Shown here piece by piece: positions 10,977 to 32,064 of a stretch of DNA of 64,000 nt. Under the pieces are notes generated by a model. That model did no database searches. It saw only the letters and a program-made list of their open reading frames with translations, and was not told the origin of the DNA. The translations under genes were made by a program, and so were the position numbers. Each line of letters begins with the position of its first letter. Positions within the stretch are counted from its first letter, which is position 1. Source of the DNA: Candidatus Latescibacterota bacterium (GTDB lineage: Bacteria > Latescibacterota > UBA2968 > GCA-2709665). Location of the stretch: NCBI GenBank assembly GCA_965208835.1, contig OZ242358.1:4352001-4416000 (forward strand), given 5' to 3'.

Positions 10977-11060
10977 GTATTCTCTCCGATCTGTACCGGG
11001 GGATACCTGCAACTCGAATGATCCTGATCCACGGCGAGTGTCGCCCCGCGTGTAGCGCCG

Positions 11061-12864: not shown

Positions 12865-13350
12865 CTACTCCCGGCTCTCCTTCACGGATTCCCAGATCGG
12901 GTAATGAACTTCCGCCCGTTGAAACTCTCTCTGCAGCCACTGGCTGAATAAAATGTCGCGAATTTCGTTTGAAACGCGTTCGTCAAGGATTGCCGGAAAG
13001 TTCCGTTGCAGCATATACAACGCGAAACCGCCCGGCGCTTTCTCCGGTCCGAATAACTCACCTGGAGAGCCGGCAAACAGGCGGGCGGCAATGCCTTTGG
13101 GTAACTGTTCTCGCCGCACCCTGCCCAGATACCCGCCGGCAAGGCGGGTGCGCTCATCCTGTGAGAACTCCCGTGCCATTGCGCAAAAGTCGCCACCTTC
13201 CTCAATTGCCTGAAGTCCGATCTCATCGATCACGCCCCTGTCACTATGGAATATCCAGTTCACCTCCGCCTCGTCGAAATCCAGCGTGTGCTGCGCGAAG
13301 TACGGTTCGATCCTTCCGTCCACGACTTTGTCGGACAACGCACGCTCCAA
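12865..13350 (-). pseudogene. 5'-truncated PpiC/parvulin-type peptidyl-prolyl isomerase, of the type linked to peptide T1SS clusters
   Basis: GGDFCAMAREFSQD..T..AGGYLG.V.R..LP rotamase motif; in-frame stop five codons upstream of the TTG, no RBS, abuts the island edge. Confidence 0.7.
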
Positions 13351-13644
13351 CCGTTTCGCCCGTGTTCACGGACATCAAGCGATTACACAATGAGGTTGCG
13401 GTGACGACTGCGTGGCATGGTTCTCCCGTTTACTAACTGATGCGAGAACCGTGTACATCGAAATTGGGAGATTCTTATACGATTAATGGACACATTTCGG
13501 AGATAATTCAAGTGTTGGCGACCGCCTGAATTATTGTTATTTTGACTAAGATTCCGACCCAGAAACCGCTTCTAGATTGCCTTGTGGATGACTCTAACGA
13601 GAGAATCTCATTTCCGAGGAATTGAAAAACGGAGAGCTATCCAG

Positions 13645-16569: not shown

Positions 16570-16724
16570 TTGGTTACGAGTTCATTCCTGTTCAACGTTG
16601 GCAACCCTACTGATCAAATCCACACATATGTGTTTTTAAATCATAGTTCACCATCCAGAAAATTCCGTTGGCAAAAAAGTTCAAGTTGATATACTGAGCG
16701 CCTTTATTTTGCAAGGAGATAAAC

Positions 16725-19700: not shown

Positions 19701-19820
19701 CCCGTCGACAATTCTCAATTCTGGGAAAGGTCCGGCAAACCTCGCGATTGCGTCTTTCTGATGGGATTATCCCTTATGGGTCCAAGAGCATCGATAATCG
19801 AGAAATATCAGAATGGCTAG
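16725..19820 (+). CDS. SIR2-STAND NTPase-TPR protein (Avs/AVAST type V-like)
   Basis: SIR2: FLGAGA, TTNYD, YKLHG, FIGYS; Walker A GAGGAGKS, Walker B VLFVFDG; SRHP winged-helix motif; TPR-like helices; RBS AAGGAG before TTG. Confidence 0.8.
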   Translation: MDFPDNLIETISSGNCVLFLGAGAAREAGAPVGNELATLLADRFEKHDISTHNLREFVDVLETTSGVDRQEIDKAIVETLQKTSPSNAHLFLPGFVWQAIFTTNYDRLIEIAYDIYRTSRGEPPLQRCNVVNGLQDQVRLDNRSSVNLYKLHGCISSIGQGNPLVLSSRDYRNTRKKRQRMLRTLKMLAVEHSILFIGYSFADQYLSELLDDIQQESPYHHHRTMFLVIPELTASYEEYFQSRNFKHLSGTFGQFCESLSELVETEARKKALTSRISSVQTVGDRSASIPTSLRVSLDSQLEIFRPEGSFNRNPKRFLSGFPPSLDDLKSRNDVTRDQQFELTESVRKALRTEAYLRPIVMVLGAGGAGKSTLAARVAYDIADQRLAISCRLKNPEQWNIDEIVNFADRIQAPVLFVFDGIEVRSWLRATKDLRQALTVARVNATLLLSCQKAVWNECKAKMGSQDIEVFDLQDRLSEIEAASLIEKLTEAKLLTTDAKIRQREVSNIVNECDGHLVAALLQIVQSGKFKAIVLGEYGNLSHRAQKAYQFVALLHQHRISIPDYLLNSVSTNNWDIFVDQVIREESELVIIQDLDATSGRLRFRSRHPLIARTIIDATVPKFEDRVRMYRRIFAELAASAEDRSFVLTLLTTESVRREIREEQYLEEFFDRALDLFPDDRALILQFGRHENNAGNYERAREILEWGKSINPRDSHILHQLGVCAQRRARRVKEKIDPLLHDSLIQEARYYFRQVQEIDPISQYGYVSEARLAINLARNEKDQVQKFALISEAESIIRSGLLLVREDDHDILRGCEAELSDVAGDTSEVLHRLCALDEKETLGYGSLYHLWAACLVRVGNVDEAIEVIKRGVKDFPGDEMLIQLMLQILEGFLFRARSRDVASEFIGYLQRETENMNIWIVFLKGVVELYDTQYRLAMESFMEVRRRMNSRASTRIRDYLRDESGHEIQKRGIIEIGRYGRPWIKDVGTGIKMPVDNSQFWERSGKPRDCVFLMGLSLMGPRASIIEKYQNG

Positions 19821-20956
19821 GCGATTGGTCTAATTCGATGGAATTATTCTGCGGAGATTGGATCCCGGGCTTTCCGGTTAGAAATATACATCGAGGTGCT
19901 TTGATGTATTGATTCGACCCAAGTTATACAATTACGTAAATCTCGTTGCCACATACGCGCATAGGAGAGTAACAATCATGCCGGCGGACCCGACACATCG
20001 GACAACGCATGAGAAGCATGAAAAACCTACCCCACAGTTGATGCAACTGCAGACCATGGAACGCTTGGAGCATCCGGAGCAAGACGATTCACAACTGAGT
20101 TCTGACCGACTGCCGAAATCGGATGCAAGCTCAAGCGGTTGAAACTCGGATGCTGACATTTCGCTGAACAGCCATCCAGATAGAATAACTGTGCAAGAGT
20201 GAGGAACTCGACGCGCAAATGAAGGCACTTGAATACAGATTCCGGGACTCCCCACTCAACATAGATCGTGTACACGAAATCGTACGGGTATGGCTCTCCA
20301 AAAGACACCCCATTCTAGCCCAACTTGAACGATAATGAAGTCGTAATACAAGAATTGCGGTATAGACTTTGTTCTCTTCAAGTGCAGATTGACAACTAGG
20401 AGGATCGACTAAAGGAAAAACAGGCATAATTTACTAAGATGAAAGATGAATGCCTGTTTCACGTTATTCAACGGCGGTTGCTCGGTCATCAGGAAGTTCG
20501 TGCGAGATTCGCCCCCCAAGTCCATTCTGCTACTTTGCACTTTGGATCGCAATCCCAATGCCCGATTGGATCATTATACCGAGCGGTTAACCGGTAACGC
20601 TTCGCACGTGCCGACAGACCGGGAACCGGCCTCTTGTTCCTGAAGGTCGCGTGTGAGACCGCCACAACCAAAGACCCTGAGTGTCCTTGCCTCCAACATC
20701 GGTTCTCCACCTCATCTTGTCCTTTCCGGCCAATATACGAAGATTAACTCAGTGTGGAAGTTGCCTTACTCTATATTCGCAGGTAGGTGGTTTGATACTA
20801 AAACCAACGACCCTAGTCGTTGCGCCAAAGGATCGCCTGTACTCTTCACAGTTCTTCCAAATCGATGCGTCGTAGTGCAAGGTCCGTACAGAATGTTACG
20901 GTTACAAATTGGTGTGTATTTCCTCAATTTCACGCATATCTTCCCGGGATTTCAAA

Positions 20957-22315
20957 ATGCGGGAACGTATTTGCTTATATAAACGCTTTGAAGGACGTTT
21001 ATCCGTTAATCCATCGATTACGTCCAACATAATTTCGTACCGCGGGAACCGCGATGCTCCTGGATTTCGATGGATGAAATACAAGGAGGGCTTCTCAACT
21101 AGCCTAGTCGAAAGCCTGATTGGAGAAATTCAGCCTTCATCGGTCTTGGACCCGTTTTCGGGCATAGGTACCACGCCACTTGTAGCGGCCGGAATGGGAC
21201 TGCGAGCTACTGGCATAGAGATCCTGCCTGTCGCAGTACTTGTGGGGCGGGCGATTGCGCTCGCTGCCAATGGATTGCGTCGCGATGCGTTTATAAAGGT
21301 CGCATCTGCCATGCTGAAGCACCTCAGGACCGAAAAACAAGCGGGGTCGGAACATGCCTTTCCCCATGTCGGCATTACGGAATATGCTTTTCCGTCAGAG
21401 ACAGAACTCGAACTTGCCAAAGCGCGTGAATTCATTAGTATCGTCGACGACCACAGTATACAAACTATGCTTAACCTCGCATGTATGAGTGTTTTGGAGT
21501 CTGTGAGCTACACAAGAAAAGACGGACAGTATCTGCGATGGTACAACCAATCACGTCGGAATGTGAAGACACGGGCAAAGAAGAGTTCGATCCCACGGTT
21601 CATAAACGCGCTCGATTTTCGCCTTTCCCAGATGGCAGAGGACATCATACCGTTGACTGTACGTTATGGGAGCGGTGAATCTAACCTGATTGCTGGGTCG
21701 ACTCTTGAGCACCTTCGGCGTATGCCTGAGGCTTCGTTTGACTTGGTAATCACATCTCCACCCTACCCAAACCGTTACGACTATACAAGGATTTATGCGC
21801 TGGAACTGGCTTGGCTCGGATATAATCAAGATGCAATCAAGTCCCTACGCCAAGAATTGTTGTCTGCCACAGTCGAGAACAGATCCAAGATAGATTGGCT
21901 GGTGAAAAATTACCGCCACGCATCACTTTTGCCATCGGCAATCCGAATGTATGAACAGCAAAGTGCAATGCACGAAGCGTTGAATATACTGCGGTCGTAC
22001 AGAAAAGAGTTAAGCAATCCAAATGTAATTCGTATGCTTGAAGGATACTTTATTGAGATGGCTATAGTAGTTGCCGAATTAGGACGAATTGTGAGTCCCG
22101 CAGGGAACGTAATTGTCGTAAGCGATAATGTTCAATACCATGGTGAAGAATTCCCAGTGGACTTCATCCTGTCCGACTTTGCAGAACAGTCGGGATTCGA
22201 ATGCAAACACATCTGGACGCTACCACGTGGAAAGGGTAACTCGAGCCAACAAATGGGCAGATTTGGACGCCGGGAGTTGCGAAAGTGTGTTTACTGGTGG
22301 TCAAGATTGAAATAA
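20957..22315 (+). CDS. N4-cytosine DNA methyltransferase, AvaI/BsoBI-like, no cognate REase adjacent
   Basis: W.KYKEGFS, LDPFSGIGTT, ITSPPY.NRYDYTR.YALEL, GKGNSSQQMG; start uncertain (20909-20957). Confidence 0.85.
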   Translation: MRERICLYKRFEGRLSVNPSITSNIISYRGNRDAPGFRWMKYKEGFSTSLVESLIGEIQPSSVLDPFSGIGTTPLVAAGMGLRATGIEILPVAVLVGRAIALAANGLRRDAFIKVASAMLKHLRTEKQAGSEHAFPHVGITEYAFPSETELELAKAREFISIVDDHSIQTMLNLACMSVLESVSYTRKDGQYLRWYNQSRRNVKTRAKKSSIPRFINALDFRLSQMAEDIIPLTVRYGSGESNLIAGSTLEHLRRMPEASFDLVITSPPYPNRYDYTRIYALELAWLGYNQDAIKSLRQELLSATVENRSKIDWLVKNYRHASLLPSAIRMYEQQSAMHEALNILRSYRKELSNPNVIRMLEGYFIEMAIVVAELGRIVSPAGNVIVVSDNVQYHGEEFPVDFILSDFAEQSGFECKHIWTLPRGKGNSSQQMGRFGRRELRKCVYWWSRLK

Positions 22316-22395
22316 GGTTTCTTGGATCACCAATTGAAAAACTCCGTGGCTCCAACTCGGCCACAAGAAGAGCTAATAAGCCGGTTACTGACAAC

Positions 22396-23499
22396 ATGTA
22401 CGGAACACAATCTCTGACGAAGGTCGTATACCTTTTGGGTGCGGGTGCATCCCACGCCTGCGTCTCGCACGTTGGTTGCCCACATGGAATATTAATGAAG
22501 CATCTCGGACAACCCTTAACGGAAAAACTGCGTACGTTGCTGCAAGATGGATATTTGGACGATGACAGCCTAAACAACCTAGTGAATTCAGTTATTGATG
22601 AGACAACAGACTTTGAGCAAGTAATTACGTTTTTGGGTGAGGCCCCTTCCGAAATCCATCGTAGATTCGCCAACGAGATGAAGAGTGCTTTTGAAGCTGT
22701 GCTTCGGAGTCAGCTGCAACGCATACGTACAGAAATCAAAGACGATCCCATTGAACTATATAAGGTGTTAATCGACTTGTACAATATTGAGGAATTTCCG
22801 GAAAAACTCGAAGGAATTATTACGATAAATTACGACGAATACATCGAAAAAGCTATTGAACAGGTTAGCACTTGTTCTATTGACTTCGGATTCCGTGTAC
22901 AACCATCCAATCCAAACACCCTTAAACTTAGGCTGCTGAAACTTCATGGTTCCTTTGGTTGGCAGGACACTTGGCCGACTGCACGAGGATGTGATGGCAA
23001 TTCAACCCTTTGGATTCCGCCTGGTATTCAGAAAGCAAAACAGGCATATCCATTCAATGTCTTGTGGGGGTTGGCTCGTGAGATGTTATCTTGCAATGTC
23101 TTGCGCATCATTGGATGTCGCTTGGGACCGAATGATTGGGATCTGATTTCATTGCTGTTCACAATGCGTCACGTCAATTACGAAGAACGTCCCAGGATCG
23201 AAGTCATTGATGCTCCATCTCATGTGGAAGATTTGAAGCAGACATATCCTTATCTAGAACTAAGGTCAATATTGGAAGTTGACCGAATCGGCAGTAAATT
23301 TGTCGCGGAGTTTACGGGAACCTCGCCTCGCAGATTTGACGAGCTCGACGAAGAAGAACGAGCCGAAGTAATAAGAGCAGCTGGAACCGACCGCAATTGG
23401 TTCGAACTTTGGTTGAAATTGCTAGCTGAGACACTTTACGTTGAACTTGGTTCTGTTTTAACTACAACGAAAACGGTCGAAGCGTTCTTGGAATCCTAG
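22396..23499 (+). CDS. Stand-alone SIR2-like protein
   Basis: VVYLLGAGAS, ITINYD, LLKLHGS, WIPPG..K, IIGC; start moved to MYGTQ. Confidence 0.8.
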   Translation: MYGTQSLTKVVYLLGAGASHACVSHVGCPHGILMKHLGQPLTEKLRTLLQDGYLDDDSLNNLVNSVIDETTDFEQVITFLGEAPSEIHRRFANEMKSAFEAVLRSQLQRIRTEIKDDPIELYKVLIDLYNIEEFPEKLEGIITINYDEYIEKAIEQVSTCSIDFGFRVQPSNPNTLKLRLLKLHGSFGWQDTWPTARGCDGNSTLWIPPGIQKAKQAYPFNVLWGLAREMLSCNVLRIIGCRLGPNDWDLISLLFTMRHVNYEERPRIEVIDAPSHVEDLKQTYPYLELRSILEVDRIGSKFVAEFTGTSPRRFDELDEEERAEVIRAAGTDRNWFELWLKLLAETLYVELGSVLTTTKTVEAFLES

Positions 23500-23514
23500 G
23501 AGGAGCGAGTAATT

Positions 23515-24678
23515 ATGGAAAAGGAAGTTATTTCTTGGTCAGTGAAGGAATTGAGGGGACAATTTAGCTTGATAAGCTTTCCAGAATACCAGCGAGAGCC
23601 TAATTTGTGGACACTTGTCGAAAAACAACGGCTAATCGACTCGATGATTAGACACTTTGACATTGCGTCTCTATATCTCTATCAGCATAACGATGGTGCT
23701 ATGGACTGTGTGGACGGGCGTCAAAGAATAGGGTCGATAATGTCGTTCTTGGGTGAGAACAACGCCAACAGTGACACCAACTTTCCGTTTCGGCCATTGA
23801 ACGAAATCCTTCAAGAAGAATGTCCACCGTACCAGTCGTTAGCAGGCAAGACATTTAACGAGATCGAACAGCTGCGGAAAACTCACGATGACCCTACGGC
23901 AGCAAAGTTCGTGGATACGTTCTTAGGTTATCCGCTAACCGTGATCATGTTGTCTGACAGCAAGGCTGGGGAAGAGTTCAATCTTCAATTTACCAGGTTG
24001 AACTTGGGGACAATAATCAACTCTGGTGAGAAACTCCATGCTATGGTTGGTGACCTCAGAGATGCCTGTTTCAACCGTCTTGGCAATCATCCCTTTCTCG
24101 AAGGCACGAACATACCAACACGACGTTTTGCGCGTGAGCAGGTGGCAGCACAGATTCTAGCTCAAGTTTTTTCGTTCAGTGCCAACGGAGTATATACGAG
24201 GATTAGGCATTTTGACCTTCAACGGATATTTAAGGAACATCGTAAGTTCACCGACGACCAAGAGGAATTGGTTGAACAAATACGCAAGCTTTTTGATCTC
24301 TTGCGTGAAGCCTTTATTGGAATCGAAACTCTTCGAAATCGAGCGATAACAGTTTCGACTGTTCTACTCGCATGGCAATCGAAATTGGATGGCTCAGGAC
24401 AAGCATCGCAACTCGCGGAATTCATTGACGAATTCGTACATCGACTCAATTGGCAAGTTAAGAAAGGGCTGGACCTAGACCGCGAATACCTCTACCTAAC
24501 GACGTTTCAACACAACATCACACAGGCTTCCTCTGAGAAGTCTTCGATTGAAGCACGCGCTAAGACGTTGCAAGAGGAATTCTTTCGATGGCGCTGTGAC
24601 GGCGAACTGAAAGGTGACAGTGATTGGAGATTAAAGAATCCAACTAGTGATCCGGGTAGAGAATCCCGTTCATCGTAG
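23515..24678 (+). CDS. DUF262 (ParB/Srx-like, GmrSD N-terminal) protein without an obvious HNH domain
   Basis: PEYQRE..W, LIDSM, VDGRQR, FTRLN.G motifs; RBS AGGAGG overlaps the SIR2 stop. Confidence 0.85.
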   Translation: MEKEVISWSVKELRGQFSLISFPEYQREPNLWTLVEKQRLIDSMIRHFDIASLYLYQHNDGAMDCVDGRQRIGSIMSFLGENNANSDTNFPFRPLNEILQEECPPYQSLAGKTFNEIEQLRKTHDDPTAAKFVDTFLGYPLTVIMLSDSKAGEEFNLQFTRLNLGTIINSGEKLHAMVGDLRDACFNRLGNHPFLEGTNIPTRRFAREQVAAQILAQVFSFSANGVYTRIRHFDLQRIFKEHRKFTDDQEELVEQIRKLFDLLREAFIGIETLRNRAITVSTVLLAWQSKLDGSGQASQLAEFIDEFVHRLNWQVKKGLDLDREYLYLTTFQHNITQASSEKSSIEARAKTLQEEFFRWRCDGELKGDSDWRLKNPTSDPGRESRSS

Positions 24679-24961
24679 AATGGAAGTTTAGCCGGATAAT
24701 TGGTGGTATTTGGAAGACCGGTAGCGTCTTGTGTTCGTTTATTGGCCGCATTCGGATGGTTGATTTCGGTCGTGGGAGGAGAATTTATGAGTTCTCGATT
24801 ACGGTTAAAGGTATTATAGAGAAGGGCAAGGATTATCAAAGATCCGTCGGTCCGCGATTCTCCCGCTCTGTTGACGATCCATGTATCTACCTTCAGCGGC
24901 ATTCGGGACCTCCTCAGTTTGTGTTTGTACGGCAATCCACCCTCTGCTCTGGCCCGTTACA

Positions 24962-25837
24962 TCAATTCTCAATGTCTTCACGCTTGTTGATGAGATACGC
25001 GGCAAAACACGCGCACGCTCCGAACATGAAGACGGCATCATTGATGTCTACTTCGGGAGCGCTTTCGGCAAGCAGCGCATGGCGGATGCCGCTTTCATCG
25101 TTTGTATACCCGTACAAATTGATGAAAGCCGCCTTCAAAGCTGGATGATTTAAGACACCAGCCGATTCGAGAGATTTTAGCGCTGGCCCAAGCGACTTGC
25201 CTGCTTTGGGGTCTATCGTCCGTGCCACGGATTCGACCGCGTGGATACATTCTCTAACTGTATCTGCAAATCGTCCCTCGTTGATAGCGGTAGCTGCAGC
25301 ACGCATATGGCTCCTTGCGCCTAATGGAGCCTTCTCTGCGATCGTTTCGATTGCCTTCTGCGTGGCTCTACCATATTCCTCACTGACGCGGGGTATGACT
25401 GTTGGTTTACCTCCGATTTCTTGGATAGCATAGGCGAGACGACCTTTTCGAAATGCATCTTCCAATACTTGACGAAGCATAGCGGAACAGTGTTTGTGAC
25501 TAACCATAAACTCGACTAACGTAAGGAGTTCGTGATATTTCCCTTCGAGAATTATATCTCTCAAATACCCACGGTGGCGAATAGGGGTATGTTGTATTTG
25601 GTCGTGGGGCCATTGATGAACCATGAAAAAGTAGCTACGAATAATCATAGAGATAGATGCGTCTTTGTAATAACGATCGTCATCAATCGCTTCATGACGA
25701 ATCGCCGTATCAACAACGAGCCAAACTATGTGTCTGAAATCCTTGGAAACATACCCCAATCGTATAATTCCAGGCAGTGGCGCAAGTCCCTCTCGCTGAG
25801 AGAATGTAAGCCTGCGCTTTTCCTCGCTCGGTTTCAT
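24962..25837 (-). CDS. AbiJ-type N-terminal domain plus HEPN-like protein
   Basis: TFSQREG N-terminus, IHAVES, LYGYTNDESGIRHAL C-terminal motif; RBS AAGGAG. Confidence 0.8.
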   Translation of the reverse strand: MKPSEEKRRLTFSQREGLAPLPGIIRLGYVSKDFRHIVWLVVDTAIRHEAIDDDRYYKDASISMIIRSYFFMVHQWPHDQIQHTPIRHRGYLRDIILEGKYHELLTLVEFMVSHKHCSAMLRQVLEDAFRKGRLAYAIQEIGGKPTVIPRVSEEYGRATQKAIETIAEKAPLGARSHMRAAATAINEGRFADTVRECIHAVESVARTIDPKAGKSLGPALKSLESAGVLNHPALKAAFINLYGYTNDESGIRHALLAESAPEVDINDAVFMFGACACFAAYLINKREDIEN

Positions 25838-26227
25838 CTCGTCGCTCCTTGAGCTTGTTTCTGAACAATCGGCATCGGCATTTCTCCCAATATAAGTTGA
25901 AAACGACTCAAGTCAAAATCTGGCAATCCAAGTTAGTCGGACATCTGATCACGCGTAGAACATCAAGCTGCAATTGTGGATTGTGGCTGAACTGCCTCGT
26001 CCGTCGGGTGACTTACGATTGAATCGTTCCCATTGGATCGTATGAGTTATGGACGACCGAAACAAGACACTAGCGGATTCGACAAGATTTGGGCTCTAAG
26101 GATGATTGTGACTACGCCTGATGCGAAGGTTATTCCATGTGAGTCGTCCCATTCCTGTTGCCGACCGGGCATATGACAATAGACTTGGAGCACGCAACCG
26201 CTGTGCACGCAGCGAAACGCACGCCTG

Positions 26228-27303
26228 TTAAGTTTCTTCGGACCCAAGCGTCTCCGCCGCTTCTGCCAATGCCGCCATCGATGTGCCGTCCCGCGACACA
26301 TTGCACATGTCCCGCAGCCTGTTCAGCCCGATGGGCATCTTGTAATACTTGCAGATCATTCCCAGACACGCCGCCCCGCAGTCGGACTGATCGTTTTGCT
26401 TCAGGAGCGGAAAACGAAACGACGTTGATGTCTTGTGTTGTTCATCAGATGTCCTTGCGATCGAGACATCTGATGGGACGCCGTCAGCCGCAACGGCGTT
26501 GTTCACTACCGCCGCTTCCGCGTGGACGTGACTTCCGCCCGATTGAATCTCGCGGGACTGAGACCTGTCCGATCCAGATTCCCGGTACAATTGCCGGGCT
26601 ATTTCCCTCAAGGGCGTAAATTCAGGAATTGAATGTTCCAGGCTTTCCAGGTCGGATTTATCCAGAAAATAGATCACGCAGTGGACCCGGCTGCGGATCG
26701 TCCGTGACTCACCACCCTTGGAATCCGTCTCTTCGAAAAAATCCCCGGCGTCCAGAGTATGCGAGCTGCCGTCCTAAAAAACACGTCCAACCTGCCTCCG
26801 CCCACTATGCAGAACCGGCCGAGCGAGCGACCGGGTTCGACAAGCGTCGTTCCTTCTGAAACCTCTTCGCGTTTAAAGCTCTGAAAAAGCTTTCCCATGT
26901 CCGCCCCGGAAACGGACCCCTTCAGAAACCTCGTGAAGTCCCGATACGCGATATTTGCGACCTGATCCTTCAGATAGGCTTCCAGCTCCGGCTCCGCCTT
27001 CAACACCTTGAAGAACCCTTCGCGCGACACCTTCAGCACAACGGAATCCTCCGCGGCTCGCACCGTCGCCCGATGTCCCTGCGCCGCCAATAGCGCACCC
27101 TCGCCGAAATGATCGCCGCAATAGAGAAATCCTACGGTCTCAGGTTGACCGTCCGCATTCGGCTTGATCACTCGCAGCCGGCCCGACTTTACCATGTGGA
27201 ACGCGTCGCCAGGCGCCCCTTGTTCAATTACGACCTCTCCGAAACGAAACCGAACGGATTCCGGCTGATTCGACAACTGAGAAAAGCGGGTGAAGACGTC
27301 CAT
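26228..27303 (-). pseudogene. Peptidase-containing ABC exporter (cNMP-cNMP-C39), frameshifted and 3'-truncated
   Basis: cNMP domain (GDHFGEGAL, RATVRA); frameshift next to the T6 run at 26776-26781, continuing DGSSHTLDAGDFFEE..VIYFLD; C39 motif QNDQSDCGAACL; similarity stops at AETLG with no membrane or ATPase domains. Confidence 0.85.
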
Positions 27304-27653: not shown

Positions 27654-28496
27654 TTATGGTTCCTGGTGCTCGGAAATGCGTTGGGTCTCTTTCGAAATCC
27701 GGCTAAACCACCACAGTCCAAGTGCTGTGAGCGCTATCCCTGATACACTCCACCACCAGGGATTGAATGCAACTTCGTTAATGTCTCCTGAAATGTCCAG
27801 ATGATGCGTGTAAAAATGCAGCATGGTCACAGCGATGAGGTTGTTCAGAGCGTGCCCGAACAACGCGGGCAACAGTGACCCGGTACGGATTACCCACCAG
27901 GCCAATACCAACCCGGATAGAATGATAGGCACAAGATGCCAGAGGTCCAGGTGCAACATACCGAAAAGAACTGCTGACCAGACAATTGCATGAATTCTTG
28001 TATAGTTCGCCAACAGGCCGCTCAGGATTATCCCCCTGAAAAGCAACTCTTCGCCCAATGGTGCGACTAAGACTGCCCCGAACAACGCAGACAAGAAGGA
28101 TGTTCTGCTCAAGATTCCCGAACGATAGACTTCCTGCATCCACTCCGGCATAGGTACGATGCCAATCACGACTTTCATCAATTCAGAATCAAGCATCCCC
28201 AGGCCCACTACTGAAATTGCAACGCAGGGCCATACCCGCAAATCGAAATCTCTGTTGAAGAGACGCCGAACGTAATCCCAATCCAGATCGGTTCGACGGT
28301 ACACGTAACCCAGAATTACGGCGAAGCTCACCAATGCCAGGGTTCCCAATGCGAAATCGTCCTCGAACTGCCATCCCGAAATCGCCGCAGCCAATGCCAG
28401 CACTACGAACGCGAGCATGAGCAGAAACAGTAACCAGATCGTCTGCTTCAAGTCCGGATATGCCTTAGAGATCTCGTCAGAATCTGTGGCCGTCAT
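27654..28496 (-). CDS. CPBP (Abi/CAAX) intramembrane metalloprotease, paralog 3
   Basis: AYPDLKQ N-terminal motif, EELLFRG, FGMLH, HALNN; start could be 28526. Confidence 0.9.
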   Translation of the reverse strand: MTATDSDEISKAYPDLKQTIWLLFLLMLAFVVLALAAAISGWQFEDDFALGTLALVSFAVILGYVYRRTDLDWDYVRRLFNRDFDLRVWPCVAISVVGLGMLDSELMKVVIGIVPMPEWMQEVYRSGILSRTSFLSALFGAVLVAPLGEELLFRGIILSGLLANYTRIHAIVWSAVLFGMLHLDLWHLVPIILSGLVLAWWVIRTGSLLPALFGHALNNLIAVTMLHFYTHHLDISGDINEVAFNPWWWSVSGIALTALGLWWFSRISKETQRISEHQEP

Positions 28497-28516
28497 AGAT
28501 CGATCGCAGTCTGCGT

Positions 28517-28849
28517 TTACTGGCATGATTCGTCCTGCTTTCTTTTCGTACCGTCAGGCCGTCTCAGTCCGTCGGTGACGTTAGAATCCTGGCCTGGTTC
28601 AACTCCGCCGGGACCCGACTCAAATAACCCGCGGACTGCGGTCACCATTCGCGCTGCAGCTACATAGAACTTTTTTCGGAAGACTATAAACGAGACTGCC
28701 TGAACAACCAGGACCGCCATCAGGATCGCAAGATCGAATTGAATGACGTATCTGAGAATCAGCAAAGCAGGCACAACGGAGAATAACACGTATAATACGG
28801 CCGCGAGAACCCAACCTCTCCACGTTCCCCCCGAGAGGACATCCTTCAT
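28517..28849 (-). CDS. Small membrane protein with two predicted TM helices, possible immunity factor
   Basis: 110 aa, two hydrophobic stretches, RBS GGAGG, sits between CPBP genes. Confidence 0.65.
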   Translation of the reverse strand: MKDVLSGGTWRGWVLAAVLYVLFSVVPALLILRYVIQFDLAILMAVLVVQAVSFIVFRKKFYVAAARMVTAVRGLFESGPGGVEPGQDSNVTDGLRRPDGTKRKQDESCQ

Positions 28850-28948: not shown

Positions 28949-29863
28949 TTAGCCGCCATCTCCTGGCGTATCACCCGTCTCAATCCTATTGGAGCTGGCT
29001 AATTGAGGTTTGTTCGATATCCGATGAAACCACCAGAGTCCAAACGCCGCCAATATAACGCCAGCGCCTGTCCACCACCATGGATTGAAAACCACGTCGT
29101 TCAGGTCCTCCGAGACCGCGACATAGGGAACGTCAACGCGCATAAACGTCGTGGATAGCAGATTGTTAAATGCATGTCCAACAACCGCAGGCCACAGAGA
29201 TCCCGTGCTTATCGTCCACCACGCAAACAAAATGCCATATATAAAGGCAGGCGAGAATTGCCATGGGTTCAGATGACTCACGCCAAACAGTATCGATGAC
29301 CAGATAATCGCACAAGTCCTGGAATGGTTCGACAACAGGCCAAACAAGATTATACCTCTAAAGAGAAGCTCTTCGACATACGGTGCGACAATGGCGGCGT
29401 GGAAAAGGGCTGACGGGAAGGAAGTTTCGCGCCCAACCGTTGATTTAATGAGTTCCTGGAATAATTCTGGCATAGGAATTACGGAAATTACAACTTTGTT
29501 CAATTCAAAGAGAACCAACGACGTTCCGCAAATCGACATTGCGACGCCGGTCCAGAGTTGCCAATCAGAACTTGCATTCCCTGGAAACAAGAGACTTGCC
29601 CACCGTCGATCCGTACGACGGGAAATGTACAATAATACTAGCAGATAAACTGCCAATTTGGTAATGCCCAGCAGGTAGTTGTTATGTTCAAGGGGTTGGC
29701 TACTGATGATACTTGCTACGTAAATGAGAATTCCGAATCCCGACTCCGTCAGGGTCAACAGTACAAGCAACCAAATGGCCTGCTTTAGGTTCGGATACGC
29801 CATTGAGCTCTCGCAAGATTTCCTATTCGGGTTTAACTGATCGCCGCCCGCGCGTTCAAACAT
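28949..29863 (-). CDS. CPBP (Abi/CAAX) intramembrane metalloprotease, paralog 4
   Basis: MAYPNLKQ, EELLFRG, FGVSH, HAFNN; RBS GGAGGTG. Confidence 0.9.
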   Translation of the reverse strand: MFERAGGDQLNPNRKSCESSMAYPNLKQAIWLLVLLTLTESGFGILIYVASIISSQPLEHNNYLLGITKLAVYLLVLLYISRRTDRRWASLLFPGNASSDWQLWTGVAMSICGTSLVLFELNKVVISVIPMPELFQELIKSTVGRETSFPSALFHAAIVAPYVEELLFRGIILFGLLSNHSRTCAIIWSSILFGVSHLNPWQFSPAFIYGILFAWWTISTGSLWPAVVGHAFNNLLSTTFMRVDVPYVAVSEDLNDVVFNPWWWTGAGVILAAFGLWWFHRISNKPQLASSNRIETGDTPGDGG

Positions 29864-29900: not shown

Positions 29901-30521
29901 TCAATCTGGCGGGCATTGCCCTTCAGGCCAGACAAAGCAACCAGGTTCAGACGGGTGATCTTGAATCAAGGCATCCTTTCCATATCGGCGTAGCTTCAAG
30001 AAAATCATGATATCTCCAGAACACACAGAGACTGTCCCGCTGAAAAGCAACAGAGACCAGATGGCGGGATCCAACCAGAACAACAAACCGGCAGCCAGTG
30101 TCGTAACGATCAATGGAAAGATCAGGACGATTCGGTGAACGCGAATTGTCAGTGGCCTATCGTAGTGACAATAGAAAGCCGCAAATTTCCAATTAGCCCC
30201 GAATCGTATCGAATTGAATGGCACCTTGCCCCATTGCAACGCGGCAACGGCGTGCAATGCTTCGTGAACTGCAATCAGCAAGACAACACTTCCGATTAAC
30301 ATCCACCTTTCTACGTTTTCCAGACTGAACTGAATCTTCAATTGCGACAAATGTGCCCCCAAGAAGCAAAAATTGAACGCCAAAAAAAACAAGATGATTC
30401 CAAGAGTGATCGCATTGACCTTGCTCACACGGATTTCGATGACCTCCCGGCCCATCTCCTTGGACGGCTCTTGACCTGCGGAGCACATTTCATTTTCCGC
30501 CGACATCGGATTCTCCATCAT
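29901..30521 (-). CDS. DUF3267-like membrane zincin metallopeptidase
   Basis: VHEALH (HExxH), FG....AFYCH, SGD, IQDHPSEPG. Confidence 0.8.
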   Translation of the reverse strand: MMENPMSAENEMCSAGQEPSKEMGREVIEIRVSKVNAITLGIILFFLAFNFCFLGAHLSQLKIQFSLENVERWMLIGSVVLLIAVHEALHAVAALQWGKVPFNSIRFGANWKFAAFYCHYDRPLTIRVHRIVLIFPLIVTTLAAGLLFWLDPAIWSLLLFSGTVSVCSGDIMIFLKLRRYGKDALIQDHPSEPGCFVWPEGQCPPD

Positions 30522-30631
30522 TGTAAATTACACGAAACCGGACCGCCAGGCATTCGATCTGAGGTGTCCTCATCCTTCCTGCTTCGACAATCTAAGGAAA
30601 AGCCCCTCGAAAGCCCGCCTGGAAGTCCGTA

Positions 30632-30673
30632 GGTCCGGTTTCCACCGAACGTGCTTTCGGTGGAAACCAGACC
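30632..30673 (-). terminator. 18-bp hairpin downstream of the peptide array
   Basis: GGTCTGGTTTCCACCGAA / TTCGGTGGAAACCGGACC; fully paired with a U-G wobble only on the minus strand; no U-tail. Confidence 0.65.
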
Positions 30674-30715
30674 CGTCAACCTTGTGACTCTTAACTGCTC
30701 ATCTCTATCAACGAA

Positions 30716-31021
30716 TCAGACTGACAGATTCGACAGGCCGTCGGCCATGCCACTGGTCAGTTGATCGTAGGCATCCGAGACGAAATTTACCGCATCCTTA
30801 GCCCTATCGTAGTACCAAATGGCGGCTTCAACGACATCCTGAGGTCTTGTCACTGCTACGACCACGAGCCCTGCCACAATCCCTACGACGACGGGATGTC
30901 CTCCCGAGACTTGTGCCATCGTATGCTCACTCAGATCTTCCCGTCTTGCAGGCAACGCCTGACAGGAGATGAGCACGCTGTCTCTATCGGTCGCCGCCGG
31001 ATAAGCCAATGCTTGTGTCAT
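30716..31021 (-). CDS. Double-glycine leader precursor peptide P4 (41-aa leader, 60-aa core)
   Basis: CQALPARREDLSEHTMAQVSGG/HPVVVG..; RBS AGGAGG. Confidence 0.8.
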   Translation of the reverse strand: MTQALAYPAATDRDSVLISCQALPARREDLSEHTMAQVSGGHPVVVGIVAGLVVVAVTRPQDVVEAAIWYYDRAKDAVNFVSDAYDQLTSGMADGLSNLSV

Positions 31022-31240
31022 GATGTCCTCCTGGAGAGTTATTCCTATTTATCGTTTTTCAACCCAATGGCCTGAATCTCGTGTTACGGAGACGGTGCCT
31101 GTTTATGGAGGCTATTGGGTTCGAGAATCGTGCTTTGCTCTACGGTTTCGTAAGAGCTTCGTGACCATATCTGCGAAGTCGCCGGCATCGGCAGTCGAGA
31201 TCGAGAAACAGAACAGGTTACGTCCTGGGCGGCGTGACCA

Positions 31241-31441
31241 TCAGTCCGTTTCGTCGAAGTATTCGAAAATGGCTTCTGCAATTGCGCTCGCCATTGCCGT
31301 CAAATTAGTGCCCATCCCGATGGGTATGAACCCTCCCGATGTCGTCGCCATCTCATAACTGGCTAATGCGATTTCCCGTCCTGGGAGTTGCGCACAAGCC
31401 ACAGAACCGCGCACTGGCATTGATTGAATTCGATCGGTCAT
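31241..31441 (-). CDS. Double-glycine leader precursor peptide P3 (37-aa leader, 29-aa core)
   Basis: CAQLPGREIALASYEMATTSGG/FIPIG..; RBS AGGAGGTG. Confidence 0.8.
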   Translation of the reverse strand: MTDRIQSMPVRGSVACAQLPGREIALASYEMATTSGGFIPIGMGTNLTAMASAIAEAIFEYFDETD

Positions 31442-31578
31442 TTTGTCACCTCCTATCTTCACCCTTTCAGAAATTCGTAAGTATGCCCTGTGGACTTCGC
31501 TTGCAGATCATCAAAGACCACGCATTTGCAGCGGTGATCGCAAAGGGAATTTGCTTTGCGTCAGTTCAGGTTCCAAGG

Positions 31579-31782
31579 TCATTCCTCGTCGTCGAAGTAC
31601 TCGACAATGGCCTCAGCAATTATTTTGCTAACGTACAGGATCATGAAGGAAGGACCTGTGGGTAACATGAGACCTCCCGATGCATTCATCATCTCACGAC
31701 GTGCCAGGCCGATTTCCCGTCCTGGAAGTCGGGTGCAGGTCACGGCGCCGTGTACTGGCATCGATAGAACTCGATCAGTCAT
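31579..31782 (-). CDS. Double-glycine leader precursor peptide P2 (37-aa leader, 30-aa core)
   Basis: CTRLPGREIGLARREMMNASGG/LMLPT..; RBS AAGGAG; clear paralog of P3. Confidence 0.8.
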   Translation of the reverse strand: MTDRVLSMPVHGAVTCTRLPGREIGLARREMMNASGGLMLPTGPSFMILYVSKIIAEAIVEYFDDEE

Positions 31783-31860
31783 TTCGTCAACTCCTTTCTA
31801 CTCGACAATTTCGATGTACAGGTGAGTTTCGCAATATCTGGTCGGAATCCTCCCAAACGG

Positions 31861-32064
31861 TTACAGCGCCGGACCTGAAGCGTCCGCTTCCGGCGTGTTC
31901 GTGCCCAGGTCTATGCCGAACAGGTCCCTCAGGATGTCCCGCCAGCGTATGGCGCCACCGGAGACCTGCGCAGTCTGTCCTGTACTCAAGTCCTCCGTCC
32001 GGATGGGCAACCGAGACGGAATTCCGGACGTGTCTGCAAGGCGTGATGCAATGCGTCTTTTCAT
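31861..32064 (-). CDS. Double-glycine leader precursor peptide P1 (37-aa leader, 30-aa core)
   Basis: SRLPIRTEDLSTGQTAQVSGG/AIRWR..; RBS AAGGAGGTG. Confidence 0.8.
   Translation of the reverse strand: MKRRIASRLADTSGIPSRLPIRTEDLSTGQTAQVSGGAIRWRDILRDLFGIDLGTNTPEADASGPAL

What the first reader, a model, noticed from the sequence alone, without database searches (positions are those of the whole stretch)
30716..32064. Array of four double-glycine peptides with an LPxR leader signature and anionic cores
Seen: four small ORFs with strong RBSs whose leaders align without gaps over the last 19 residues before the SGG cut: LPxR at -19 to -16, L at -12, M/T at -7, and Cys at -22 in three. Cores are AIRWRDILRDLFGIDLGTNTPEADASGPAL, LMLPTGPSFMILYVSKIIAEAIVEYFDDEE, FIPIGMGTNLTAMASAIAEAIFEYFDETD and a 60-aa core containing VEAAIWYYD. 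All lack Cys and are net acidic; P2 and P3 share IAEAI.EYFD, echoed in P4. Known: L(-12), hydrophobic(-7) and GG is the C39 cleavage consensus, and typical class II bacteriocins are cationic. No radical SAM, YcaO or Lan enzyme is in the window. Inference: an undescribed family of unmodified anionic membrane-active or signalling peptides, co-encoded with DUF3267, CPBPs, a cNMP-bearing C39 exporter and a PPIase that might act on the leader proline.
Basis: partly seen in the sequence, partly recalled or inferred. Interest (0 to 1): 0.85.

Follow-up and report, generated by a model that had tools for sequence, protein, structure and literature searches.

The report
Gemmatimonadota double-glycine peptide arsenal, exporter lost
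Four real small genes encode secreted-peptide precursors of an unnamed leader family found in one group of marine and sponge-associated bacteria, most likely microcin-like weapons with their protection genes, but in this genome a defence island has deleted their export pump.

Summary
Four minus-strand ORFs (P1-P4) have AGGAGG-type ribosome sites and 37- or 41-residue leaders sharing LPxR, L(-12), SGG.

The leader family is real but narrow:
- It was found in 41 of 61 related genomes.
- It gave 56 hits among 1.84 billion representatives, 4 of them repeat artefacts.
- 0 of 36 members reach a Pfam or NCBIfam cut-off.
- In 38 of those 41 genomes a C39 peptidase match lies within about 7 kb.

Relatives carry one conserved operon: peptides, then variable DUF3267 and CPBP membrane proteases, then a 1011-aa cNMP-C39-ABC exporter, HlyD, and a PpiC-type PPIase.

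In this window a 12,881-bp defence island (13361-26241) replaced two-thirds of the exporter, all of HlyD and the PPIase N-terminus. The exporter remnant is also frameshifted.

Best reading (0.6): a class II microcin-like multi-peptide locus with an extended leader and cognate immunity or processing proteases, orphaned here. P4 plus DUF3267 resembles the TMcin precursor-protease pair but fails its disulfide/β-hairpin criterion.

Anionic cores are normal for Gram-negative microcins. Activity, cleavage and expression are untested.

New variant of a known kind; interest moderate.

The parts
31861..32064 (-). P1: precursor with a type II leader (MKRRI..SGIPSRLPIRTEDL..QVSGG) and core family A (AIRWRDILRDLFGIDLGTN...)
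   Evidence: ORF and ribosome site. The leader HMM scores E 5e-21. Family A peptides occur in 8 of 8 same-genus loci held, counting this window.
31579..31782 (-). P2: precursor with a type I leader (MTDRV..C.RLPGRE..LARREMMNASGG) and core family B (..LPTGPSFM...IAEAIVEYFDDEE)
   Evidence: dN/dS against the ortholog in L036 is 0.21.
31241..31441 (-). P3: precursor with a type I leader and core family B
   Evidence: Homologs are 98%, 80%, 68%, 67% and 58% identical. dN/dS is 0.84.
30716..31021 (-). P4: precursor with a 41-aa type III leader; the core starts with a hydrophobic helix (HPVVVGIVAGLVVVAVT) followed by a conserved W-Y-x-D-R ... MADGLSNL tail
   Evidence: A hydrophobic segment was found by Kyte-Doolittle scan. 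The AF2 model is all-helical but of low confidence (pLDDT 55).
30631..30674 (-). 19-bp perfect hairpin just after the P4 stop codon, before DUF3267
   Evidence: Folded in a 101-nt stretch: MFE -43.8 kcal/mol, z -5.16, 0 of 200 shuffles as stable. It is kept in 5 aligned loci, and 9 of 33 pairs show changes on both sides. No U-tract follows it.
29901..30521 (-). DUF3267 (PF11667) four-helix membrane protein with HEALH: a candidate S2P-clan intramembrane metalloprotease paired with P4
   Evidence: Pfam E 5.8e-15. H86, E87, H90, P136 and D170 are invariant in 21 sequences. The AF2 model has pLDDT 85.7. The four best VIA rows are S2P proteases with Z 6.1-7.0. This gene lies directly downstream of a P4-type gene in 5 of 5 loci.
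28949..29863 (-). CPBP/Rce1-like intramembrane protease A
   Evidence: Pfam PF02517, E 9.3e-21. The EELLFR, FGVSH and HAFNN motifs are present.
28517..28849 (-). 110-aa protein with two hydrophobic segments. It matches the N-terminal extension of 270-297-aa DUF3267 proteins in relatives, so it is probably a truncated remnant or a stand-alone form.
   Evidence: In run X8 a contig carries 1256 letters in place of the 83 between window 28515 and 28599.
27654..28526 (-). CPBP/Rce1-like intramembrane protease B
   Evidence: Pfam E 3.1e-20. Motifs are intact.
26242..27303 (-). Remnant (first ~343-354 residues) of the cNMP-C39-ABC exporter. It is frameshifted near 26775 and cut off inside the C39 domain.
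   Evidence: Pfam finds cNMP_binding, and Peptidase_C39 covering only profile positions 2-58 of 133. It is 71-78% identical to residues 1-343 of the 1011-aa exporters of relatives. Contigs of run X5 carry an extra C behind 26775.
13361..26241 (.). 12,881-bp low-GC defence island that replaced 3,720 bp (exporter C-terminal part, HlyD, PPIase N-terminus)
   Evidence: A 44,307-nt contig of run X8 joins window 13360 to 26242 with 3,720 other letters between. GC is 0.477 against 0.595 for the genome. PADLOC and Pfam find ThsA-like SIR2-STAND, MTase_II, SIR2, NsnA/GmrSD-like and PDC-S32/AbiJ-like genes. No flanking repeats were found.
12865..13360 (-). Remnant of the PpiC-type PPIase (corresponds to residues ~106-272 of the orthologs)
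   Evidence: Pfam Rotamase, E 2.3e-10. tblastn gives 71-86% identity to the C-terminal 154-166 residues of the orthologs.
11061..12098 (-). CPBP/Rce1-like protease C (the true start is probably near 11915)
   Evidence: Pfam E 5.3e-19. Motifs are intact. It is syntenic with L031 19068-19895.
10122..11012 (-). CPBP/Rce1-like protease D
   Evidence: Pfam E 1.2e-19. The first motif reads EEVLCR.

Best explanation
P1-P4 are translated precursors of a lineage-restricted family of double-glycine peptides. Each has a bipartite leader of 37 or 41 residues. The last about 12 residues fit the classical C39 recognition pattern: L(-12), E/Q(-8), M/T(-7), a small or hydrophobic residue at -4, then GG. The N-terminal half (M-T-D/E-R-I..S.P....V.C..LP.R) is specific to the family.

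In intact loci of relatives, a cNMP-domain-bearing peptidase-ABC transporter (PCAT) with a HlyD-type membrane-fusion protein would cut at GG and export the cores across both membranes, as in class II microcin secretion. A PpiC-type PPIase is a conserved third component. The variable DUF3267 (S2P-like) and CPBP (Abi-like) membrane proteases next to individual peptide genes act as cognate immunity and/or maturation factors. P4, whose core begins with a transmembrane helix, forms a fixed pair with DUF3267.

The most likely role is interbacterial antagonism: a multi-microcin arsenal. P1-type peptides might instead be signals.

In this genome the dedicated exporter, HlyD and PPIase were deleted by a defence-island insertion. 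The array is therefore orphaned. It may be silent, kept mainly for its immunity genes, or exported by the paralogous intact PCAT at about 1.58 Mb.

Shown: the genes, the family, the synteny and the deletion. Inferred: cleavage, export, antibacterial activity, immunity, and cross-export.
For: - The genes and their ribosome sites are real.
- The leader has a fixed length and conserved pattern in 36 non-redundant leaders: M1, L19 and G36 are invariant, P20 and G37 are in at least 90%.
- The family is present in 41 of 61 related genomes. That includes 14 of 14 in the same genus and 21 of 21 in a genus of a second family.
- In 38 of these 41 genomes a Peptidase_C39 match lies within about 7.1 kb on the same contig. 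G000's own match is the remnant. G023 has only distant matches, and G036 and G050 (82% and 89% complete) have none.
- The order exporter, HlyD, PPIase holds in 16 of 16 loci where at least 3 kb downstream of the exporter is held.
- The loci are built as modules: P4-type followed by DUF3267 in 5 of 5; Gly-rich hydrophobic cargo followed by a small two-helix protein; A-type plus poly-Cys peptide followed by CPBP, three times in L043.
- Modules are swapped between strains: a contig at least 90% alike carries different sequence at 28515/28599 and at 29884/31188. Peptide sets differ among same-genus genomes.
- The locus GC is 0.52 against 0.595 for the genome.
- Cargo types elsewhere in the family look like microcins: Gly/Ala-rich hydrophobic peptides and TM-helix peptides.
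- Pooled pN/pS is 0.47.
- From the literature, passages read: the five-part class II microcin layout, adjacent membrane immunity proteins and neutral or anionic charge (PMC10233263); DUF3267 (TmcP) removes a bacteriocin leader inside the membrane (PMC13712780); a CAAX/CPBP protease is discussed as possible bacteriocin self-immunity (PMC8692603).
- The deletion is shown.
Against: - No activity, cleavage or expression data exist, and no run on record as RNA holds the locus.
- P1-P3 cores have no hydrophobic segment in the 19-residue Kyte-Doolittle scan; a laxer 15-residue scan flags residues 46-60 of P2. Their helical amphipathicity does not clearly exceed shuffles. A membrane-active mode is therefore unproven.
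- Many relatives' cores are extremely acidic, down to -13. No validated microcin was compared with them here.
- dN/dS of P3 is 0.84.
- All DUF3267 and CPBP copies keep catalytic residues. This fits processing at least as well as passive immunity.
- No outer-membrane receptor, TolC gene or regulator was sought.
- In this genome the export genes are gone, so whatever the family does, this copy may do nothing.
Confidence: 0.6

Rival explanations
1. The peptides are membrane-processed RiPP-like products, not unmodified peptides. DUF3267 and the CPBP proteases would be maturation enzymes that trim or further process the peptides in the membrane, as in TMcin biosynthesis or MroQ-type pheromone processing. 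This applies above all to P4, which would insert into the producer's membrane before release. The reading overlaps with the best explanation and differs only in the role of the proteases.
For: - DUF3267 (TmcP) is an experimentally shown leader-removing S2P-clan protease for a TM-helix bacteriocin (PMC13712780, passages read).
- The P4 core begins with a hydrophobic helix and is followed by DUF3267 in 5 of 5 loci.
- HExxH, the distal Asp and a Pro are invariant in 21 sequences.
- The best structural rows are SpoIVFB, RseP and mjS2P, with Z 6.1-7.0.
- Four of four CPBPs keep their catalytic motifs.
- The N-terminal two-helix module occurs both fused to DUF3267 and separate from it. This echoes the TmcE/TmcP split proposed in that paper.
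Against: - P4 has the same GG site as the other three peptides, which the PCAT would cut, so a second leader protease seems unnecessary.
- P4 lacks the two conserved Cys of TMcin, and the low-confidence model is all-helical.
- P1-P3 have no long (19-residue) hydrophobic segment for an intramembrane protease to act on; only a 15-residue stretch of P2 is flagged.
- CPBP/Abi proteins in bacteriocin loci have been linked to immunity (Kjos et al. 2010, seen only as a reference in PMC8692603).
Confidence: 0.2
2. The peptides are signalling (quorum or host-directed) peptides, not toxins. A nucleotide second messenger would gate their release through the transporter's cNMP domains, as proposed for HetC in Nostoc.
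For: - The transporter has the HetC architecture: cNMP, C39, ABC.
- HetC's cNMP domain binds ppGpp and its substrate is thought to be a regulatory peptide (PMC10986499, passages read).
- P1-type peptides are the most conserved, are first in the array, and are present in 8 of 8 same-genus loci.
- Carriers occur in runs labelled sponge or marine metagenome. Of these only X8 was laid on the locus, where a long contig bridges it. The named relatives are MAGs.
- Hyper-acidic cores are unlike classical pore-formers.
Against: - No histidine kinase, response regulator or Rgg/PlcR-type receptor was seen among the locus genes annotated.
- There are several divergent peptides per locus, each with its own membrane-protein partner.
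- Strain-level module swapping and low GC are typical of antagonism loci.
- The exporter has been lost in this genome without loss of the peptides.
Confidence: 0.15
3. The ORFs are not expressed genes, that is chance frames or decayed relics.
For: - The cognate exporter is deleted and its remnant is frameshifted.
- dN/dS of P3 is 0.84.
Against: - All four frames are intact and have ribosome sites.
- 61 distinct family members keep their frame and leader length.
- 81 protein clusters match in the 5.8-billion-sequence set.
- Pooled pN/pS is 0.47.
- A homolog 98% identical to P3 exists elsewhere.
Confidence: 0.04

Closest known systems
Class II microcins of Gram-negative bacteria (MccV type: pre-microcin, immunity protein, PCAT CvaB, MFP CvaA, TolC)
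   Same: [quoted passage not shown]
- Membrane-protein genes adjacent to the peptide genes.
- A C39-ABC exporter followed by a HlyD-type MFP in the intact loci.
- Neutral to anionic, hydrophobic-rich cores.
- Several peptides per locus.
(review PMC10233263.)
   Different: - The leader is 37-41 residues with a conserved family-specific N-terminal half, against 15-18 residues (PMC12219008, passage read).
- The exporter carries N-terminal cNMP domains.
- A PpiC-type PPIase is a fixed third operon member.
- The adjacent membrane proteins are catalytically intact DUF3267 and CPBP proteases rather than small immunity proteins of no known family.
- The host is a Gemmatimonadota-type lineage.
- No activity has been shown.
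TMcin system of Gram-positive bacteria (TmcA precursor, TmcP = DUF3267 protease, TmcE escort, TmcBC, TmcD)
   Same: - A precursor whose mature part begins with a transmembrane helix (P4) is encoded next to a four-helix DUF3267 protease with HExxH and a distal Asp.
- The leader is about 41-45 residues.
- A two-helix module occurs either fused to the protease or separate from it.
(PMC13712780 and PMC12328743, passages read.)
   Different: - P4 has no pair of conserved cysteines.
- No β-hairpin is predicted: the model is all-helical but of low confidence.
- P4 has a canonical GG site and a PCAT-type exporter rather than TmcBC.
- No DsbA-like gene was seen among the locus genes annotated.
- TMcins were reported only from Bacillota and Actinomycetota.
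HetC of Nostoc PCC 7120 (cNMP-C39-ABC PCAT)
   Same: The domain order is the same: cNMP-binding, Peptidase_C39, ABC membrane, ABC ATPase.
   Different: - HetC has no neighbouring MFP and no identified substrate (PMC10986499).
- Here the substrates are obvious and adjacent, and HlyD follows the exporter.
- Ligand binding was not tested.
Nif11 / NHLP leader peptide families with NHLM-type exporters (TIGR03798, TIGR03793, TIGR03796). The Nif11 and NHLP model numbers and their role are recalled from memory.
   Same: - A long conserved leader ending in GG drives many unrelated cores.
- The exporter remnant's best NCBIfam row is TIGR03796, the NHLP-family bacteriocin export ABC (E 3.5e-13, far below its cut-off).
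- The cNMP fragment weakly hits TIGR03896, a bacteriocin-type transport-associated protein.
   Different: - No member matches a Nif11 or NHLP leader model: 0 of 36 at E <= 0.1.
- The leader is half as long.
- No tailoring enzymes are adjacent.
Abi/CPBP proteins of Gram-positive class II bacteriocin loci (pln, skk, blp)
   Same: Several CPBP genes lie within a double-glycine peptide locus, with conserved EExxxR, FxxxH and HxxxN motifs.
   Different: - Their role here is untested.
- The immunity role rests on Kjos et al. 2010, which was seen only as a reference in PMC8692603 and is otherwise recalled.

Membership tests
Double-glycine leader peptides / PCAT substrates | N-terminal leader ending in GG (or GA/GS), with hydrophobic residues at -4, -7 and -12 and often E at -8 | tested here: met
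   The four window peptides and 36 non-redundant leaders were aligned. L(-12) is invariant in the window four. P2 and P3 have E(-8)M(-7), P1 has Q(-8)T(-7) and P4 has T(-8)M(-7). Position -4 is V, A or T, followed by SGG.
Double-glycine leader peptides / PCAT substrates | A C39 peptidase-ABC transporter is encoded nearby | tested here: met
   38 of 41 genomes with a leader match have a Peptidase_C39 match within about 7.1 kb. In the window itself only a truncated, frameshifted remnant remains.
Double-glycine leader peptides / PCAT substrates | Cleavage after GG concomitant with export | not testable with these tools
   This needs an in vitro C39 assay or N-terminal sequencing of the secreted peptide.
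Class II microcins | A membrane-fusion protein (HlyD/CvaA type) next to the PCAT | tested here: met
   HlyD_3 matches with E 8.3e-15 in the relative L036. The order exporter, HlyD, PPIase holds in 16 of 16 loci with enough downstream DNA. These genes are deleted in the window.
Class II microcins | Short 15-18-residue signal sequence | tested here: not met
   The leaders are 37 or 41 residues. The 15-18-residue figure comes from PMC12219008.
Class II microcins | Antibacterial activity and a cognate immunity protein | not testable with these tools
   Only adjacency of membrane-protein genes is shown.
Curated leader or bacteriocin models (Pfam-A, NCBIfam release 20, including Bacteriocin_IIc, TIGR03949, Nif11, NHLP) | Score at or above the curated cut-off | tested here: not met
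   0 of 36 members reach a cut-off. TIGR03949 is touched by 3 of 36, best E 0.0074, 15.3 bits for P3 against a cut-off of 21.5.
TMcin (TmcA) | The mature peptide starts with a transmembrane helix | tested here: met
   For P4 only: a hydrophobic segment at residues about 40-60 directly after GG, and a helix at 43-58 in the AF2 model of pLDDT 55.
TMcin (TmcA) | Two universally conserved cysteines forming a disulfide that pins a C-terminal two-stranded β-sheet | tested here: not met
   The P4 core has no Cys, and 13 aligned P4-type sequences show no conserved Cys pair in the core. The model is helical at 60-99, with low confidence.
TMcin (TmcA) | An adjacent DUF3267 (TmcP) protease | tested here: met
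   PF11667 matches with E 5.8e-15. It lies directly downstream of a P4-type gene in 5 of 5 loci.
S2P-clan intramembrane metalloproteases (for the DUF3267 gene) | HExxH plus a distal Asp in a membrane helical core, with an S2P-like fold | tested here: met
   H86, E87, H90, D170 and P136 are invariant in 21 of 21 sequences. Foldseek gave no match at E <= 0.001. The VIA second look puts SpoIVFB, RseP and mjS2P in ranks 1-4 with Z 7.0-6.1; the best row has rmsd 2.8 over 106 residues. These Z values are middling, so the fold evidence is moderate.
HetC-type cNMP-PCAT | An N-terminal cyclic-nucleotide-binding domain fused to C39-ABC | tested here: met
   The 1011-aa protein of L036 has cNMP_binding at 17-102, Peptidase_C39 at 298-424, ABC_membrane and ABC_tran. 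The window holds only the remnant.
Enzyme-tailored RiPPs (radical SAM, YcaO, LanC types) | A tailoring enzyme in the cluster | tested here: not met
   No Radical_SAM match lies in the window range. There is no YcaO match in the genome. LanC gave no match, but its control search rang nowhere, so that part is inconclusive.

The most novel reading that the evidence does not exclude
The 37-residue leader may be a two-part address. The C-terminal helix would be read by the C39 domain. The family-specific N-terminal half (invariant Leu-Pro, a frequent Cys three residues before it) would be read by the transporter's cNMP domains or by the operon's apparently cytoplasmic parvulin. Release of a whole repertoire of hyper-acidic peptides would then be gated by a nucleotide second messenger. 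The cores would not be pore-formers but a new class of secreted anionic effectors, for example cation-binding, anti-cationic-peptide or host-directed factors in sponge symbionts. The S2P-like and CPBP proteases would handle the membrane-inserted members of the repertoire.
Probability: 0.12. Interest if true: 0.8.

Novelty: new variant of a known kind. Interest (0 to 1): 0.55.

Why it matters
- It would be a microcin-like peptide system in Gemmatimonadota-type bacteria. No held paper joins 'Gemmatimonadota' with 'double-glycine'.
- It supplies an HMM-ready leader family (alignments A2 and A3) for mining small ORFs that are all labelled hypothetical.
- It gives cNMP-bearing PCATs, whose best-studied member HetC has no known substrate, a set of obvious native substrates. 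Nucleotide gating of peptide export therefore becomes testable in vitro.
- It places a TM-helix peptide plus DUF3267 protease pair outside the Gram-positive phyla where TMcins were described.
- For this particular genome it is also a clean example of a defence island displacing a competition system.

Tried and rejected
- **Complex prediction, DUF3267 (A5) with P4 (A4):** score 0.31 against a mark of 0.32, so no verdict either way.
- **RNA evidence:** no RNA holder is listed among 20 runs. All laid runs were contigs, so nothing can be said on expression.
- **Foldseek against PDB with the DUF3267 model:** no match at E <= 0.001; 3b4r came at rank 11 with TMq 0.37.
- **L010 (a record titled Burkholderiales MAG, 40% identity over 42 residues):** rejected as a chance hit, because the match lies in a frame overlapping a 450-aa ORF on the opposite strand.
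- **Repeat proteins:** P0119, P0120, P0126 and P0131 among the 56 representative hits are repeat proteins with several matched stretches. They were dropped as false positives.
- **Amphipathic-helix claim:** not significant against shuffles.
- **Other family members in G000:** none beyond the four. The next best ORF scores E 0.046, and three weak hits at E > 0.2 appear.
- **Leader-family peptide beside the intact second exporter (L030):** none found. Only a peptide with a different GG leader is there.
- **Flanking repeats or an integrase at the island borders:** no repeats found. No integrase was looked for beyond Pfam and PADLOC scans of six island ORFs.
- **Taxon names for 10 distant members:** none are on record. 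The P0117 locus scan found nothing.
- **Protein atlas for P4:** the best clusters score 0.87 (hypothetical) and 0.84 ('Bacteriocin'). All are under 0.9, so they are leads only.
- **Supplementary files of the papers:** not consulted. Supplementary leader alignments of PMC12219008 and PMC3140520 might hold similar leaders.
Full report
**1. The observation**

- P1, 31861-32064
- P2, 31579-31782
- P3, 31241-31441
- P4, 30716-31021

Each start codon follows an AGGAGG-like ribosome site. The alignment (A1) confirms LPxR at -19 to -16, L at -12, M or T at -7, SGG at the end, and Cys at -22 in three of the four. The cores are as quoted. They lack Cys and carry net charges of -2, -5, -5 and -4.

The last twelve leader residues fit the classical C39 recognition pattern, for example L-A-R-R-E-M-M-N-A-S-G-G in P2. 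The pattern itself I recall from Havarstein et al. 1995, which I saw only in reference lists.

**2. It is a real, narrow, unnamed family**

*Within the genome.* A profile of the four peptides finds only these four at a significant E-value in the complete 5.18-Mb genome.

*Among relatives.* The profile finds matches in 41 of 61 related genomes:
- 14 of 14 in the same genus
- 21 of 21 in a genus of a second family
- none in 8 genomes of two further families of the class

Many matches cover only profile positions 1-41. The leader is therefore conserved while the cores change.

*Diversity of the peptides.* From the fetched loci I extracted 61 distinct peptides. Their leaders are 37 residues (types I and II) or 41 residues (type III, as in P4). 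The cores fall into at least six families.

*In the large collections.*
- Against 5.8 billion proteins, an alignment of 36 members (A3) finds 81 clusters. All are unnamed or 'hypothetical protein', from records titled Gemmatimonadota or Candidatus Latescibacteria MAGs, and none has a Pfam domain.
- Against 1.84 billion representatives, a leader-only profile (A2) finds 56 proteins at E <= 0.001.
- Four of these 56 are repeat-protein artefacts. The rest carry the leader at their N-terminus in front of very diverse cargo.

*Against curated models.* None of the 36 members reaches a Pfam or NCBIfam cut-off. Three weakly touch TIGR03949, a class IIb bacteriocin model.

*In print.* No held paper contains both 'Gemmatimonadota' and 'double-glycine'.

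**3. Context in relatives**

*Proximity to C39.* A Peptidase_C39 search of the same 61 genomes, compared place by place, gives this result for the 41 genomes with a leader match:
- 38 have a C39 match, usually in an open frame of about 1000-1040 aa, within about 7.1 kb on the same contig.
- G023 has only distant matches.
- G036 and G050 (82% and 89% complete) have none.

*The conserved operon.* Synteny by tblastn and Pfam give this order in the same genus:
- the peptide genes
- a variable set of DUF3267 and CPBP genes
- a 1011-aa exporter (cNMP_binding, Peptidase_C39, ABC_membrane, ABC_tran)
- a 466-aa HlyD-family protein
- a 272-aa PpiC-type PPIase
- further CPBP genes

The order exporter, HlyD, PPIase holds in 16 of 16 loci where enough downstream DNA is held. 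L008 was dropped from that count as a duplicate of L036. L009, L045 and L046 end too close to the exporter to judge. L043 and L044 hold no exporter.

*The PPIase.* The PPIase orthologs show no N-terminal hydrophobic segment in a Kyte-Doolittle scan. They may therefore be cytoplasmic.

**4. Modules**

The loci are built from peptide-plus-membrane-protein units:
- A P4-type gene (TM helix plus a W-Y-x-D-R tail) is directly followed by DUF3267 in 5 of 5 loci: the window, L032, L034, L036 and L045.
- Gly/Ala-rich hydrophobic cargo is followed by a small two-helix protein related to the window's 110-aa ORF.
- In L043 an A-type peptide, a TM peptide with a poly-Cys tail and a CPBP gene recur three times.

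*DUF3267.*
- The copies keep H86, E87, H90, P136 and D170 (A5, 21 of 21 sequences).
- The AF2 model of the window's copy is confident (pLDDT 85.7).
- Foldseek found nothing significant.
- In the VIA second look the four best rows are all site-2 proteases: SpoIVFB Z 7.0, RseP Z 6.7, SpoIVFB variant Z 6.5, mjS2P Z 6.1.
- This agrees with the 2026 mBio paper showing that the DUF3267 protein TmcP is an S2P-clan protease. It removes the leader of the TM-helix bacteriocin TMcin inside the membrane (PMC13712780; outline, introduction and passages read).

*CPBP.* All four CPBP genes of the window keep the EExxxR, FxxxH and HxxxN motifs.

**5. What happened in this window**

*Where homology breaks.* Homology to the exporter stops at about residue 343-354. 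It resumes at residue about 106 of the PPIase.

*Direct evidence for the replacement.* A 44,307-nt contig of run X8, at least 90% alike, joins window position 13360 to 26242 and carries 3,720 other letters in between. That length equals the missing exporter part plus HlyD plus the PPIase N-terminus.

*The inserted island.* The 12,881 bp now in their place have GC 0.477, against 0.595 for the genome. They encode:
- a ThsA-like SIR2-STAND-TPR protein
- a type II methyltransferase
- a second SIR2 protein
- a GmrSD/NsnA-like protein
- an AbiJ-like PDC-S32 protein
- a 995-aa protein of no known family

*Further decay.* The exporter remnant is also frameshifted. Contigs of run X5 have one more C behind 26775.

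The peptide, DUF3267 and CPBP genes are intact.

*A second system.* A paralogous intact system (TPR protein, CPBP, 1021-aa exporter, HlyD, PPIase) lies at about 1.58 Mb of the same genome. Its exporter is 59% identical to the cluster-type exporters. Beside it sits a peptide with a different canonical GG leader. [quoted passage not shown] That remains pure inference.

**6. Most likely function**

The layout matches the five-part class II microcin scheme apart from TolC, which I did not look for. That scheme comprises a pre-peptide with a GG signal, an adjacent membrane immunity protein, a PCAT and an MFP. The same review notes that most microcins are neutral or anionic (PMC10233263).

Points in favour of an antagonism arsenal:
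- several divergent peptides per locus, each with its own membrane partner
- different peptide sets in genomes of one genus
- swapped modules in a near-identical strain, at 28515/28599 and 29884/31188
- spacers that are more conserved (91-94%) than the P2 gene (71%)
- locus GC of 0.52
- microcin-like Gly/Ala-rich and TM-helix cargo elsewhere in the family

Selection on the four genes is moderate. dN/dS is 0.51, 0.21, 0.84 and 0.45, and pooled pN/pS is 0.47.

I therefore put 0.6 on a microcin-like multi-peptide locus with cognate immunity and/or processing proteases. The rivals are:
- 0.2 on the variant in which DUF3267 and CPBP are maturation enzymes (TMcin-like, above all for P4)
- 0.15 on signalling peptides gated through the cNMP domains, by analogy with HetC, whose cNMP domain binds ppGpp and whose substrate is unknown (PMC10986499)
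- 0.04 on non-expression

Nothing here shows cleavage, export, activity or expression.

**7. Against and open**

- P1-P3 cores have no hydrophobic segment in the 19-residue scan, and a laxer 15-residue scan flags only residues 46-60 of P2. Their helical moments do not clearly exceed shuffles.
- Relatives' cores reach a net charge of -13.
- The P4 model is of low confidence (pLDDT 55; helices 26-39, 43-58 and 60-99).
- P4 fails the TMcin criterion of two conserved cysteines pinning a β-hairpin (PMC12328743).
- The role of the invariant Leu-Pro and of the frequent Cys in the leader is unknown. The leader helix in the low-confidence model begins right after the Pro.
- A conserved 19-bp hairpin follows the P4 stop codon. 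It may set the ratio of peptide to downstream transcripts, but that is a guess.

**8. Novelty**

The kind is known: double-glycine peptides exported by a PCAT and an MFP. Several features together are not described in the sources I could search:
- the long two-part leader family
- its restriction to one order, in genomes labelled Gemmatimonadota or Latescibacterota
- the fixed triad of cNMP-PCAT, HlyD and parvulin
- the catalytically intact DUF3267 and CPBP partners
- the strongly acidic cargo

Supplementary files of the microcin and cyanobacterial mining papers were not available and might hold similar leaders. I rate the finding a new variant of a known kind. Interest is moderate (0.55) and is lowered for this particular window because the export machinery is gone.

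Noticed in passing
window 13361-26241: A 12.9-kb low-GC defence island. It holds a ThsA-like SIR2-STAND-TPR gene (16725-19820), a type II methyltransferase (20909-22315), a SIR2 gene (22285-23499), a GmrSD/NsnA-like gene (23515-24678), an AbiJ-like PDC-S32 gene (24962-25837, minus strand) and a 995-aa ORF (13582-16569) with no Pfam family. It is inserted with a deletion of 3.7 kb, and no flanking repeats were found.
   Followed up: partly
L030 (G000:C1:1570000-1589999), 5768-13824 minus strand: A second, intact paralogous system in the same genome: a TPR protein, a CPBP, a 1021-aa cNMP-C39-ABC exporter, HlyD and a PPIase. Its exporter is 69% identical to the exporters of two other genera of the family.
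   Followed up: partly
L030 14796-15242 minus strand: A 148-aa ORF with a different canonical double-glycine leader (..VLDRTELQRVWGG) and a Gly/Ser/Pro-rich cargo, beside the second exporter. It is a likely substrate of that system.
   Followed up: no
L031 10781-11047; L033 10955-11239; L035 8734-9081; L043 11188-11577 and 13051-13416: Family members with a type III-like leader, one TM helix and a C-terminal run of cysteines (CCCKK, CCSCCCCKR, CCCCCCCDD, CRCCCCDD). This is an unusual cargo of unknown meaning.
   Followed up: no
L044 10674-11114; L045 9668-10087; L046 10667-11056; L047 10611-10997: Family members whose leader ends in ..EEMAGIDG rather than SGG. They are followed by LWDWGDF and a long Gly/Ala-rich hydrophobic cargo resembling Gly-rich microcins. 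The cut site is unclear.
   Followed up: no
L037-L042 and L047 peptides (for example L037 10349-10567): In the second family's genus the main cargo is CILPGED...EDIIDDI.D.VSEWW.SW. It has a variable number of acidic D/E-x-[IV]-x-D repeats and net charge of -7 to -13. A Cys is the first residue after GG.
   Followed up: no
window 30631-30674 minus strand: A perfect 19-bp hairpin after the P4 stop codon (z -5.16). It is conserved, with compensatory changes, in relatives, and no U-tract follows it.
   Followed up: partly
window 32354-32383 and 32494-32520 minus strand: Two strong terminator-like hairpins with T-runs lie upstream of P1, so the array starts its own transcription unit. No sigma-70-like promoter was detected between them and P1.
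   Followed up: no
window 31442-31578 and 31022-31240 compared with L036: The intergenic spacers P2-P3 and P3-P4 are 91-94% identical to the relative, while the P2 gene is only 71% identical. This mosaic pattern suggests gene-sized recombination.
   Followed up: no
L050 (match 10001-10123) and one search place G027:C1:2405584: A divergent leader-family member lies about 4 kb from a further PCAT in a genome that has four C39 matches. Record titles call such genomes Candidatus Latescibacterota, whereas same-genus relatives of the window are titled Gemmatimonadota, although the genome tool places both in one order.
   Followed up: no
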